64,000 nt of DNA from Escherichia coli O157:H7 (GTDB taxonomy: Bacteria; Pseudomonadota; Gammaproteobacteria; Enterobacterales; Enterobacteriaceae). The position numbers were made by a program. The stretch lies in assembly GCF_013167455.1 (NCBI RefSeq), contig NZ_CP038328.1. One strand, given 5' to 3'. The stretch's first letter is position 1. Every line of letters starts with the position of its first letter. Shown here piece by piece: positions 6,001 through 9,000 of this stretch.

Positions 6001-9000
6001 CCCGACGCCTGACCACGGATTATGGCGATACCTGGGCGCTGATTGGATCAAATGAGCCTTATGCGGCCATTCATCAGTGGGGTGGCCTGCCAGGTATGCC
6101 GCCTGGACCGGCGGCCATTGGTGCACGTCCGTATATGGGCTTTGATCAGGTGGCAGAGCAGGAGATCATGGACGAAATCAGAAAACGCTTTAAAAAGGCC
6201 ACAGAAACGCCTTAATTGTTTAAGGTATGCAAATGCATTACCTTACCCCCTTCAGGCGCGTGTCGTGATTTTCTAACCTGTATTTAACGGGCTTTAAAAT
6301 CTGCGTGAAGCGCCTTTGTATTTTTCCCCTGAAAGCACTTCCTGAAATCCCGCAAAACCCGTCCTGAAAATTCCCGGCTTATGCTGCCGGAATGAAGACG
6401 AAAAACACGCCCAAACTTGCTTATGCCATTCTGAATGCCATCAGCCTGTCCGCAGACGGGGACGGTGACTGGTGTCAGATCATGCCAGCCGGTCGGGTAA
6501 AGGCCCGTGACGGTCGCCCGGAAAAACCGGCTGAAGGCTGGCTGATTAACCGTGCGACCGTTGAGCGCATGGTCTCCCGTGTTGTGGCGCTCAATCAGCC
6601 GGTGAAAATTGACTACAACCACCAGACCCTGATTGAGGGACATCCGGCACCGGCTGCCGGTTTTGTGATGGCCTCACCGGAGAATTTTCGCTTCAGTGAA
6701 GAGCGAGGTTTCGAGGTGCGCCCGAAGTGGAACCCTCCGGCCCTTGAACATCTGCGTAATAACGAATTCCCCTGGTTTTCACCGGTGATTGGCTATGACG
6801 AGAGCACCGGCGAACCTGTCGAACTTCGGATGCTGGCTATTACCGGTGACCCCGGTCTGACCGGCATGAATCCTGTCGCCGCACTGTCGGCGGATGACCT
6901 TTATAACGCCTTAAACCCTCCTTTAAAGGATACCTCCATGAATGAGCAATTACGCCAGTTGCTGACGGCGCTCGGTCTGACCGTGGCTGACGGTGACGAA
7001 TTTACGCCGGAGCTGGGCACGGCGGCGCTGTCTGCCCTCACCGGGATCAAAACCCGTGCGGATGCACACGACAACCTGAAAACACAGGTCGCCAGTCTGT
7101 CGGCAGAGCTGGAAACCGCAAAAGGCACACCGGCTGGCGGCAGTATTGATCTGACGAAATACGTGCCCGTTGAAACGTATAACGCCCTGCGTACCGAATA
7201 CGTTGCGCTGTCGGCGCAGCACGGCAGCACCACGCTGGAGCAGGTGCTGGACAAGGCTGAATCCGAAGGGCGCATCTTCAAAAGCGAACGCGGCTATCTG
7301 GAACAACTGGGCGGGCAGATTGGCGTTGCGGCACTTTCTGCACAGCTTGACGCCCGCCAGCCGGTTGCGGCCCTGACCGGCCTTCAGACCGACACCGTGA
7401 CCGTGCCGGATAAAAAGACTGCCACCGCTGTGCTGTCGGCTGAAGATATCGCGGCCGCCAAACTGCTGGGTAAAACCGAAGCCGAGTTCCTGAAAATGAA
7501 AGAGGAAATGCAATAATGCCTACCCCGATTACACCGGCGATGATCACCGCCCTGATGACGGGCTACCGTTCTGATTTTCAGGCCGGGATGTCCATGGCCC
7601 CGTCGCAGTACAAAAAAATTGCGATGACCGTACCGTCCACGTCGAAATCCAACACCTACGGCTGGCTGGGGCAGTTCCCGCAGTTCCGTGAGTGGATCGG
7701 CTCCCGCGTCATCGAGAAGATGAAGGCCTATGGCTATGCCATCGTGAACAAAACCTTTGAAGGCACCGTCGCCATTAACCGCGATGACTTCGAAGACGAT
7801 AACCTCGGTATTTATTCCCCGTTGTTCCAGGAGATGGGGCGCGCTGCTGCGGCACAACCGGATGAACTGGTCTTTGCTGCTCTTCGTGACGGGATTAATG
7901 CGGCCTGCTATGACGGCCAGAACTTCTTTGATACCGAACATCCTGTTTACCCCAAAGTGGATGGCTCCGGGGATGCGCAGATGGTCAGCAATATGTTTGT
8001 GGCAAAAACCGGCTCTGTCGGTGCACAAGCGGATTACAGCGGTCCTGCCTGGTATCTGCTCGACTGTTCACGCGCAATCAAACCGCTGATTTATCAGGAT
8101 CGCCGTAAGGCTGAACTGGTTGCCCAGACCAAAGTCGATGAAGGTCGCGCATTCACCGATAACGAATTTGTGTTTGGTGCATCCGCCCGTCGCAATGTGG
8201 GCTACGGCTTCTGGCAGATGGCCTACATGATGCAGTCACCGCTGACGCTGGATGCACTGTGGCACGGCTGGTCAGCCATGCGCGAATTTACCGCTGACGG
8301 TGGCCGCAAACTCGGCATCAAACCCACCCATATTGTTGTCCCCACCTCGCTGGAAAAACAGGCGGTGCAGCTGCTGGAGCGTGAACTGTTCGCAGACGGA
8401 AACGCAACCGTCTCTAACGAGATGAAGGGCAAGCTGGAGCTGGTTGTCGCGGATTATCTGTAAACGGTGAGCCGGGCTTACGGCCCGGCCCCTGCGGAGG
8501 GCAAATATGAATGAACATCACACTGTGGCAGCAACAGATGATTCAGGTCTTCAGGTCAGTGGTGACAATTCTGTCACAGTGCTGGCAGAAGTGCGTTGCA
8601 GTCGTTCGGCGTTTCGTCGTGCGGGGTTCCTGTTCACGCGTGGACGTCAGCAGGTTGAGGTCTCCCCGGAGCAGCTTGCCCGACTGGAGGCGGAGCCATG
8701 CCTCACTGTGCGAATACTACAGACGCCTGCTGATGATGCGGGGAGCGTGGCGGGTGTGGTTCATGCAGTGGCCGGTACAGATTTAGCCGAAGCCGGACAG
8801 GATACTCCCCGGAAAAAGACCGGTAACAAAGCGAAACAGGCGAAAAAGGCCCGCGCATGAATTACGCCACTGAAACCGATATGCGGGCGCGTTACCGCGA
8901 GGATTTGCTCAGGCCGTTACTGGCTGTGCCCCGTTCGGATGAGCCGGACACGCGCAAGCTGAACCGGGCGCTGACAGATGCGTCAGCCCTTATCGACAGC

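What the first reader, a model, noticed from the sequence alone, without database searches (positions are those of the whole stretch)
6324..6391. Triple CCTGAAA direct repeat upstream of the protease/scaffold gene
Mu has an activator-dependent late promoter before gene I. This gap carries three CCTGAAA repeats spaced 13 and 22 bp apart, which could be the corresponding late promoter or activator site.
Basis: inference. Interest (0 to 1): 0.3.

Follow-up and report, generated by a model that had tools for sequence, protein, structure and literature searches.

The report
Mu-type late promoter before gene I

Summary
The three CCTGAAA copies are real (6328, 6341, 6363; spacing 13 and 22) and lie in the 176-bp G-I gap of an Sp18-type Mu-like prophage. 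As a repeat they are not conserved: each copy is intact in only 5-9 of 26 distinct relatives, and the repeat is absent from the other late promoter. The conserved features, held without gaps down to ~60% protein identity, are a box CTGA-N6-GCAA-AACC (6342-6359), a variable 20-nt spacer with no -35, a -10-like hexamer (TATGCT, 6380-6385), and 6-7 nt to the ATG of I. The same lineage-specific box, spacer and hexamer lie upstream of the lysis gene in every lineage. All four mapped Mu late promoters fit the same register, with the C site centred at -43.5. The prophage encodes one Mor/C-family activator. So this is the P_I orthologue; repeat copy 2 merely supplies the distal half-site. By Mu geometry the transcript should start at the A of the ATG (inferred leaderless I mRNA: no Shine-Dalgarno, fixed -10-to-ATG distance). 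A GC-rich hairpin spanning the -10 and abutting the ATG is specific to P_I. The 5' part of the gap is the strong gyrase site homologue. Ordinary in kind, with a modestly novel leaderless twist.

The parts
5742..6215 (+). Mu G-like virion morphogenesis gene; its stop codon is the left edge of the gap
   Evidence: Pfam Phage_tail_S 1e-33; RefSeq annotation of the 99.5% identical prophage
6216..6300 (.). Homologue of the Mu strong gyrase site (SGS). The Mu cleavage position 17879/80 aligns to window 6235/6236, followed by a right-arm-like stretch with phased A/T tracts (GATTTTCTAACCTGTATTTAACGGGCTTTAAAAT)
   Evidence: Mu annotation places the gyrase cut site in the G-I gap. Alignment with Mu and four lineages; the 6264-6289 stretch has mean identity 0.83 across relatives. 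The literature reports that the O157:H7 Sakai Mu-like prophage SGS supports Mu replication (PMC10052514; PMC3820752). Gyrase binding was not tested here
6328..6334 (+). CCTGAAA copy 1: upstream of the activator box and not conserved
   Evidence: intact in 5/26 relatives (CCTGTCA, CCTGGAA, TGTCCTG and others)
6341..6347 (+). CCTGAAA copy 2: overlaps the distal half-site CTGA (6342-6345) of the activator box
   Evidence: the 7-mer is intact in 6/26 relatives but CTGA in 22/26 (the rest are CTAA/TTAA/GTAA)
6363..6369 (+). CCTGAAA copy 3: inside the variable 20-nt spacer between box and -10, not conserved
   Evidence: intact in 9/26; the spacer has mean identity 0.58
6342..6359 (+). Predicted binding site of the prophage's C-type late activator: imperfect dyad CTGA(6342-6345)-N6-GCAA(6352-6355) followed by AACC. 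It is centred at -43.5 if transcription starts at 6392
   Evidence: Conserved without gaps in all lineages. The same lineage-specific box lies upstream of lys. It is the best unbiased lys-versus-I match in 8 of 9 lineage comparisons, p 0.005-0.03. PWM score 29.9 bits, one of only two strong sites in the 45-kb prophage locus. Same register as the Mu C site (PMC2582627)
6360..6379 (+). 20-nt spacer of fixed length and free sequence; no -35 hexamer
   Evidence: Length is invariant in 12 of 12 promoters across 6 lineages. No sigma-70-type promoter is called on the + strand in the gap
6380..6385 (+). -10 hexamer TATGCT
   Evidence: Variants are TATGCT, TAAGCT, TACGAT and CACACT, all keeping A2 and T6. 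At lys the variants are TACGCT, TACTCT, TACCCT and TATCCT at the identical distance from the box. MAFFT aligns it to Mu P_I CAAACT
6374..6390 (+). Inverted repeat CCGGC(6374-6378)-TTATGCT-GCCGG(6386-6390), enclosing the -10 and ending 1 nt before the ATG. It forms a hairpin on any transcript that reads through from upstream
   Evidence: -10 kcal/mol, z -3.1. Hairpins built from different stem sequences occur in all lineages and in Mu. They are absent from the lys promoters
6392..7516 (+). Mu I-like protease/scaffold gene. Its ATG (6392) is the predicted transcription start (leaderless mRNA, inferred)
   Evidence: Pfam Mu-like_Pro 2.6e-76; 48% identity to Mu gpI from residue 9. 6392 is the first start codon in the ORF. 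The ATG is invariant in 26/26 relatives. Anti-SD pairing is only -2.6 kcal/mol

Best explanation
Window 6342-6392 is the orthologue of Mu's late promoter P_I in an Sp18-type Mu-like prophage. A dimer of the prophage's single Mor/C-family activator is predicted to bind the imperfect dyad CTGA-N6-GCAA (6342-6355, plus the adjacent AACC). This activator is encoded about 8 kb upstream, just outside the window. The site is centred 31.5 bp upstream of the first base of the -10 hexamer TATGCT (6380-6385), which corresponds to -43.5. Bound there, the activator would let sigma-70 RNA polymerase start at a promoter that has no -35 element, as Mu C does at P_lys, P_I, P_P and P_mom. The CCTGAAA triple is not the functional unit. 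Copy 2 contributes the distal half-site. Copies 1 and 3 lie in unconstrained positions and are lineage-specific accidents. Shown here: the box, the fixed spacer and the hexamer are conserved; they recur at lys; and they change together in both promoters from lineage to lineage. Inferred from Mu geometry: transcription starts at or within 1 nt of the A of the I start codon (6392), so the I mRNA would be leaderless (my confidence about 0.55). Inferred more weakly: the GC-rich hairpin that encloses the -10 and abuts the AUG forms only on transcripts reading through from G. On such transcripts it would keep the SD-less I start closed, so I would be made mainly from P_I transcripts. The rest of the gap (6216 to about 6300) is the strong gyrase site homologue.
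For: Context: Mu-like late genes gp27, portal, F, G, I and T. The prophage is 99.5% identical to annotated copies in STEC genomes. Mu has the SGS, a terminator and P_I in the same G-I gap. Conservation: in 27 distinct I-upstream sequences the box, the 20-nt spacer length, the hexamer and the ATG align without gaps, while the spacer sequence and the repeats vary. Regulon: every lineage carries its own variant of the box upstream of lys, with the hexamer at the identical distance. An unbiased best-18-mer comparison picks the box in 8 of 9 lineage comparisons, p 0.005-0.03. A PWM scan finds exactly two strong sites, at lys and at I, in the 45-kb prophage locus (31.1 and 29.9 bits; the next hit is 18.4 bits in host marA) and in each of 16 relatives' loci. 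The dyad positions co-vary symmetrically: TG..CA in lineages A/B, TA..TA in lineages C/D and in Mu. All four Mu late promoters fit the same register, and MAFFT independently aligns box to box and hexamer to hexamer. Literature: C binds a 16-bp imperfect dyad centred at -43.5, and the late promoters have a -10 but no -35 (PMC2582627). Activator: Pfam Mor 2.8e-32; 39% identity to Mu C against 26% to Mor; the GG linker and HTH are retained. Leaderless reading: the hexamer-to-ATG distance is 6-7 nt in all lineages; Mu's 23-nt leader is an insertion relative to this family; I has no usable SD (-2.6 kcal/mol against -6 to -12 for most neighbours) and follows a 176-nt gap; 6392 is the only possible start codon. 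Hairpin: present in all lineages (z -1.6 to -3.9) and in Mu (z -4.7); absent at lys (z -0.6 to +0.25).
Against: There is no experimental evidence for this prophage: no mapped transcription start, no footprint, no reporter data. The PWM was built from the same lys and I sites that it scores highest, so those two scores are circular. The independent supports are the unbiased 18-mer test, the lack of other strong hits, and the Mu register. No P_P equivalent was found, and only a weak candidate (15.5 bits) sits at the P_mom position, so the regulon differs from Mu's four promoters. The dyad symmetry is weak in this lineage: 2 of 4 positions per half-site. The hexamer lies in the loop of a conserved hairpin, so part of its conservation could come from an RNA-level constraint. 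No recognition-helix residue tracks the half-site change cleanly. The leaderless start is extrapolated from Mu spacing. A start 1-2 nt upstream, or a different start, cannot be excluded. In this lineage copy 3 creates an alternative -10-like TGAAAAT (6365-6371).
Confidence: 0.8

Rival explanations
1. The three CCTGAAA copies are themselves an array of binding sites for the late activator or for another phage or host protein.
For: Three exact 7-mers within 42 bp, directly upstream of a late gene. Such clusters are uncommon in shuffles (16% have at least one). Copy 2 does overlap the conserved box.
Against: Each copy is intact in only 5-9 of 26 relatives, and relatives with 96-97% identical I protein have already lost copies 1 and 2. 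No CCTGAAA occurs at the lys promoter, which shares the activator box. Spacings of 13 and 22 nt do not match one another. Copies 1 and 3 lack the proximal half-site GCAA ten nucleotides downstream. Mor/C proteins bind dyads as dimers (PMC2582627).
Confidence: 0.05
2. The conserved elements next to the ATG are primarily an RNA element on the polycistronic late transcript: a hairpin acting as a translational operator, processing site or attenuator for I. On this view the hexamer is conserved as loop sequence, and there is no promoter at this position.
For: A stable hairpin abutting or including the AUG exists in every lineage with different stem sequences (for example CCGGC/GCCGG, TGACCGCC/GGCGGTCA, GCTGCC/GGCGGC) and in Mu. 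It is specific to the I site. The window's lineage has no good terminator between G and I, so read-through is likely.
Against: The same class of hexamer sits at the identical distance from the same box at lys, where there is no hairpin. The hexamer variants keep the -10 signature A2/T6, whereas a loop has no such requirement. The upstream box, 20 nt from the hairpin and shared with lys, is not explained. The hairpin register shifts between lineages while the hexamer column stays fixed. Mu P_I is experimentally a promoter at the aligned position. The hairpin is best read as an added layer rather than an alternative.
Confidence: 0.08
3. The repeats are phased A-tracts that curve the DNA. They would either extend the right arm of the strong gyrase site or act as an UP-like or bent-DNA element of the promoter.
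For: GAAA/AAAA tracts lie at about 6344, 6354 and 6366, roughly one helical turn apart. The SGS right arm just upstream has phased A/T tracts, and the literature attributes its function to bending motifs. Mu late promoters carry T-runs in their spacers.
Against: The tracts are not conserved: lineage B, C and D spacers are GC-rich (CCCTCTCGCC, CACGCTTTCC, CGCCCGCGCT). Copy 1 is out of phase (13 nt). Clear homology to the Mu SGS ends about 30 nt before copy 1.
Confidence: 0.05

Closest known systems
Bacteriophage Mu late promoter P_I (C-dependent; one of P_lys, P_I, P_P, P_mom)
   Same: Same genomic position: the G-I gap, downstream of the strong gyrase site. There is a -10 hexamer and no -35. 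An imperfect dyad lies 31.5 bp upstream of the hexamer (centred at -43.5), followed by C-rich bases. The phage encodes a cognate Mor/C-family activator. The same box is present at the lysis promoter.
   Different: The box sequence differs: CTGA-N6-GCAA against Mu TTAT-N6-ATAA / CATAACCCC. Mu P_I has a leader of about 26 nt with an SD-like AGGA, whereas here the hexamer is 6 nt from the ATG, predicting a leaderless mRNA. Only two strong promoters were detected instead of four, and the prophage has one Mor/C gene instead of two (Mor plus C).
Mu strong gyrase site (SGS) and the functional SGS of the E. coli O157:H7 Sakai Mu-like prophage
   Same: The 5' half of the same gap (6216 to about 6300) aligns with the Mu SGS core and right arm. 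The prophage family is the one found in O157:H7 genomes at 99% identity (PMC10052514).
   Different: The repeat region (6324-6391) lies downstream of the SGS homology and belongs to the promoter rather than the gyrase site. Gyrase binding was not tested here.
Leaderless phage mRNAs such as lambda cI from P_RM (from my own knowledge, not a tool result)
   Same: The predicted start is at the A of the AUG, there is no Shine-Dalgarno sequence, and the first codons are A-rich (ATGAAGACGAAAAAC).
   Different: The lambda cI case is experimentally established and concerns a repressor gene. Here the gene is a structural late gene (protease/scaffold), the promoter is activator-dependent, and the start site is only inferred.

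Membership tests
Mu-type C-dependent late promoter | Recognisable -10 hexamer but no -35 hexamer | tested here: met
   TATGCT at 6380-6385, with A2/T6 kept in all variants. No sigma-70-type -35/-10 pair is found on the + strand of the gap. Definition from PMC2582627.
Mu-type C-dependent late promoter | 16-bp imperfect dyad element centred at -43.5, that is 31.5 bp upstream of the first base of the -10 hexamer | tested here: met
   CTGA-N6-GCAA at 6342-6355 has its centre at 6348.5, which is 31.5 bp before 6380. This is the same register as all four Mu promoters. The symmetry is weak (TG..CA), but the symmetric positions co-vary between lineages.
Mu-type C-dependent late promoter | Cognate Mor/C-family activator encoded by the same phage | tested here: met
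   L002 12224-12649: Pfam Mor 2.8e-32; 39% identity to Mu C; located immediately upstream of lys as C is. The gene lies just outside the window.
Mu-type C-dependent late promoter | The same activator box at the phage's other late promoters (a regulon) | tested here: inconclusive
   Met for lys in all lineages. Only a weak candidate sits at the P_mom position (window 22313, 15.5 bits). No P_P equivalent was found.
Mu-type C-dependent late promoter | Transcription depends on the activator, with the start about 7 nt after the hexamer | not testable with these tools
   Needs 5'-end mapping and reporter assays.
   Copies are intact in 5/26, 6/26 and 9/26 relatives and absent from the lys promoter.
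Leaderless mRNA | No Shine-Dalgarno sequence, and a fixed short distance from the -10 to the start codon | tested here: met
   Anti-SD pairing is -2.6 kcal/mol. There are 6-7 nt between hexamer and ATG in all lineages.
Leaderless mRNA | The 5' end of the transcript coincides with the A of the AUG | not testable with these tools
   Inferred only, from the spacing of S1-mapped Mu promoters.
Mu strong gyrase site | Central G-I gap location and sequence homology to the Mu SGS core and right arm | tested here: met
   Met for 6216 to about 6300. The repeat region itself lies outside this homology.
Mu strong gyrase site | Strong gyrase cleavage or binding and support of replicative transposition | not testable with these tools
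   Reported in the literature for the Sakai Mu-like prophage site. The primary paper (Oram & Pato 2004) is not held.

The most novel reading that the evidence does not exclude
In this clade of Mu-like prophages the protease/scaffold gene I is expressed from a leaderless mRNA that starts at its own AUG. A hairpin specific to P_I has its 5' arm upstream of the start, so it can form only on transcripts reading through from the lys-to-G operon. That hairpin would silence the SD-less I start on those longer transcripts. Production of I would then be tied strictly to firing of the activator-dependent internal promoter. This would be a promoter-coupled translation switch, not described for Mu, where the mapped start likewise falls inside the 5' arm of an analogous hairpin.
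Probability: 0.3. Interest if true: 0.5.

Novelty: new member of a known kind. Interest (0 to 1): 0.3.

Why it matters
It gives a base-level annotation of the central regulatory gap of a prophage carried by about 4% of complete E. coli genomes, mostly STEC: gyrase site, activator box, -10 and start. It also shows how the C-type activator site has drifted together in two promoters across at least four lineages. That provides a natural specificity series for Mor/C-family proteins, whose activation mechanism is under current structural study. If the leaderless start and the promoter-specific hairpin are confirmed, they would be a compact example of coupling translation to promoter choice in a late operon. 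As a discovery it is modest: the existence of a P_I-type promoter here is what homology with Mu predicts.

Tried and rejected
The viral-contig scan supplied the comparative set instead.
2. A loose regex for the box was uninformative and even missed the lys site. It was replaced by a PWM and an unbiased 18-mer comparison.
3. I considered whether window TCCCGCAAAAC is the homologue of the Mu P_I -10 region TCCCGCAAACT, since the two sit at a similar distance from the ATG. I rejected this because the family-wide alignment, the lys promoters and MAFFT all place that string in the activator box, and CAAAAC lacks the T6 of a -10.
4. I looked for a P_P equivalent inside the N gene and anywhere within +11 kb of I in 16 loci. 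None was found. A 14-18-bit hit at +5.3 kb in lineage B lies inside coding sequence and has no -10-like hexamer.
5. I looked for a terminator between G and the promoter. It is strong in lineages B and C but absent in the window's lineage.
6. I tried column-wise covariation for the hairpin. This is not meaningful because the stem register shifts between lineages, so I used per-lineage folding with shuffles plus a lys control.
7. I looked for a recognition-helix residue that tracks the TG/TA half-site change. There is no clean correlation: E versus Q at one position fails in L030.
8. Oram & Pato 2004 and Oram et al. 2006 on the SGS are not held in the library.
9. Rfam found nothing credible in the gap itself (best E 9.2).
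10. I did not verify directly that the Sakai genome copy is identical to the window. That link rests on 99% identity to many O157:H7 genomes.
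Full report
**1. The observation.** CCTGAAA occurs on the + strand at 6328, 6341 and 6363, with spacing of 13 and 22 nt. 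All three copies lie in the 176-bp gap between a Mu G-like gene (5742-6215) and a Mu I-like protease/scaffold gene (6392-7516). Three non-overlapping copies of any 7-mer within 50 nt occur twice in the real window. At least one such cluster appears in 16% of dinucleotide shuffles. The cluster is therefore unusual but not compelling on its own. The window-wide excess of the 7-mer (34 against 8.8) is probably codon usage (CTG-AAA), which is my inference.

**2. Context.** The window begins inside the late region of a Mu-like prophage: gp27, TerL, portal, F, G, I, T and so on. The prophage is 99.5% identical over this region to copies in many STEC genomes, and related copies occur in 229 of 5426 complete E. 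coli genomes. The full prophage in NZ_CP028695.1 (locus L002) runs repressor, transposase A and B, Gam, GemA, one Mor/C-family gene, lysis genes, head and tail genes, an invertase, and com plus an adjacent unannotated ORF at the position of Mu mom. In Mu itself the G-I gap holds three things: the strong gyrase site (cut at 17879/80), a predicted terminator, and the C-dependent late promoter P_I.

**3. What is conserved.** I collected 37 related loci from IMG/VR and one from Citrobacter braakii, with I protein identity from 59 to 100%. The 27 distinct I-upstream regions align without gaps over the last ~55 nt (one 1-nt indel just before the ATG). The conserved features, in order, are:

- a box CTGAnnTnCCGCAAAnCC (window 6342-6359)
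- a spacer of exactly 20 nt whose sequence is free
- a hexamer TATGCT / TAAGCT / TACGAT / CACACT (window 6380-6385)
- 6 or 7 nt
- the ATG

The repeat copies are intact in only 5, 6 and 9 of 26 relatives. By contrast CTGA is intact in 22/26, GCAA in 21/26 and the ATG in 26/26. Relatives with 96-97% identical I protein already read CCTGTCA, TCTGAAG and CCCGAAA at the three repeat positions.

**4. The same element at the other late promoter.** Upstream of the lysis gene, every lineage has its own variant of the same box, followed by 20 nt and a -10-like hexamer.

| Lineage | lys promoter | I promoter |
|---|---|---|
| A (window) | CTGA TATTCC GCAA AGCC -N20- TACGCT | CTGA AATCCC GCAA AACC -N20- TATGCT |
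| C (L036) | CTAA CCGACC GTAA ... TACCCT | CTAA CTTACC GTAA ... CACACT |
| D (L027) | TTAA CGGAGC GTAA ... TATCCT | TTAA TGTAGC GTAA ... CACACT |

An unbiased search for the best 18-mer match between the two upstream regions picks this box in 8 of 9 lineage comparisons (p 0.005-0.03 each). A PWM scan finds exactly two strong sites in the 45-kb prophage locus: lys at 31.1 bits and I at 29.9 bits. The next hit is 18.4 bits inside host marA. The same scan finds exactly two strong sites in each of 16 relatives' ~21-kb loci. The PWM scores of the training sites are circular. The 18-mer test and the absence of other strong hits are not.

**5. Relation to Mu.** All four Mu late promoters fit the same register: [TTAT]-N6-[ATAA]CCCC-N20-hexamer. 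MAFFT independently aligns Mu's box to the family box and Mu's CAAACT to TATGCT. The literature defines the C site as a 16-bp imperfect dyad centred at -43.5, in promoters that have a -10 but lack a -35 (PMC2582627). Here the dyad centre (6348.5) is 31.5 bp upstream of the hexamer, exactly as in Mu. No -35/-10 pair is detected on the + strand. The symmetric dyad positions co-vary, G/C in lineages A and B and A/T in C, D and Mu, as expected for a dimer. The activator is a Mor-family protein (Pfam 2.8e-32). It is closer to Mu C (39%) than to Mor (26%) and keeps the invariant GG linker and the HTH. I conclude that 6342-6385 is the P_I orthologue. Repeat copy 2 supplies the distal half-site CTGA. 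Copy 1 lies upstream of the site and copy 3 lies in the free spacer.

**6. Where transcription should start.** With Mu's S1-mapped geometry (hexamer at -12 to -7), +1 falls on 6392, the A of the I start codon. Several observations support a leaderless mRNA:

- 6392 is the first start codon of the ORF, and the protein aligns with Mu gpI from residue 9, so no other start is possible.
- The hexamer-to-ATG distance is 6-7 nt in every lineage.
- Mu's leader appears as a 23-nt insertion relative to this family.
- I has almost no anti-SD complementarity (-2.6 kcal/mol against -6 to -12 for most neighbours) and follows a 176-nt gap, which excludes translational coupling.

This is an inference, not a measurement.

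**7. A hairpin specific to P_I.** The hexamer is enclosed by an inverted repeat, CCGGC-TTATGCT-GCCGG at 6374-6390, with -10 kcal/mol and z -3.1. Every lineage has a hairpin there, built from different stems (TGACCG/CGGTCA, TGACCGCC/GGCGGTCA, CCGGC/GTCGG, GCTGCC/GGCGGC) and often pairing the AUG itself. Mu has one too (z -4.7). The lys promoters have none (z -0.6 to +0.25). Its 5' arm lies upstream of the predicted start, so it can form only on read-through transcripts. The window's lineage lacks the strong terminator that lineages B and C have between the gyrase site and the box. A plausible role is to keep the SD-less I start silent on read-through RNA. This is speculative.

**8. The rest of the gap.** Window 6216 to about 6300 aligns with the Mu SGS. 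Mu's cut site maps to 6235/6236, and the right-arm-like stretch GATTTTCTAACCTGTATTTAACGG is conserved. The SGS of the O157:H7 Sakai Mu-like prophage was the only heterologous site reported to support Mu replication (PMC10052514). Copies of this gap in O157:H7 genomes are 99% identical to the window.

**9. Verdict.** The promoter interpretation is supported, but through a different motif, and the repeat as such is incidental. This is a new member of a known kind (Mu-type C-dependent late promoter), with a possible new variant feature (leaderless start plus a promoter-specific hairpin). I found no report of a leaderless late mRNA in Mu-like phages in the searchable library. Interest is 0.3.

Noticed in passing
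window 5622-5701, minus strand (F-G gap 5621-5741): A tRNA-like element lies antisense to the late operon. Rfam tRNA scores 31 bits (gathering score 29), RefSeq annotates it as 'tRNA-OTHER', and ARAGORN finds nothing. The 122-125-nt F-G gap and the element are conserved in lineages A and B, with compensatory changes at 5 pairs in the acceptor stem, the T arm and one further stem, while the anticodon/variable part differs wholesale. A minus-strand promoter-like TTGCC(T/C)-N17/18-TAAAAT lies just upstream and looks conserved in the sequences inspected by eye. Mu has no F-G gap. Function is unknown.
   Followed up: partly
window 22313-22355, + strand (gap after the invertase gene): A third candidate activator-dependent promoter: CTGA-ATTAAC-GCAA-AATG, a 19-nt spacer, then TATGAT, followed by a normal leader and SD before a DUF6645 gene. 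This is the position Mu P_mom occupies, just after gin. The score is only 15.5 bits, and a chance hit in host marA scores higher.
   Followed up: partly
L002 12224-12649 (off-window, about 8 kb upstream of window position 1): The prophage has a single Mor/C-family gene, placed directly between GemA and the lysis genes, whereas Mu has both Mor and C. No P_P equivalent was found in any lineage. This suggests a simpler cascade with fewer late promoters.
   Followed up: partly
window 6216-6300: Homologue of the Mu strong gyrase site. The Mu cut site aligns to 6235/6236, followed by a conserved right-arm-like stretch with phased A/T tracts.
   Followed up: partly
L004 9822-9855 and L036 9815-9853 (relatives): Strong terminator-like hairpins with U-runs (-17 kcal/mol, z about -3.9) lie between the gyrase site and the activator box in lineages B and C. 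The window's lineage has only a degenerate version at 6289-6327 (z 0.03).
   Followed up: partly
window 3073-3097, + strand: GATGCCA occurs three times within 31 nt inside the portal gene. It is the only other triple 7-mer cluster in the window.
   Followed up: no
window 6349-6359 versus Mu (L003) 18014-18024 and the Mu P_lys/P_I spacers: The string TCCCGCA recurs in different functional registers: in this family's activator box, in Mu P_I at the -10 (TCCCGCAAACT), and as the 10-bp TCCCGCACCT match between the Mu P_lys and P_I spacers noted in PMC4461284. It may be coincidence or an evolutionary relic.
   Followed up: no
L002 13897-14124 (off-window, in the lysis operon): A TraR/DksA-family zinc-finger gene sits in the late operon (Pfam 5.4e-12). 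P_I has a GC-rich discriminator (GCCGG / GGCGG / GTCGG) in all lineages. A link between the two is pure speculation.
   Followed up: no
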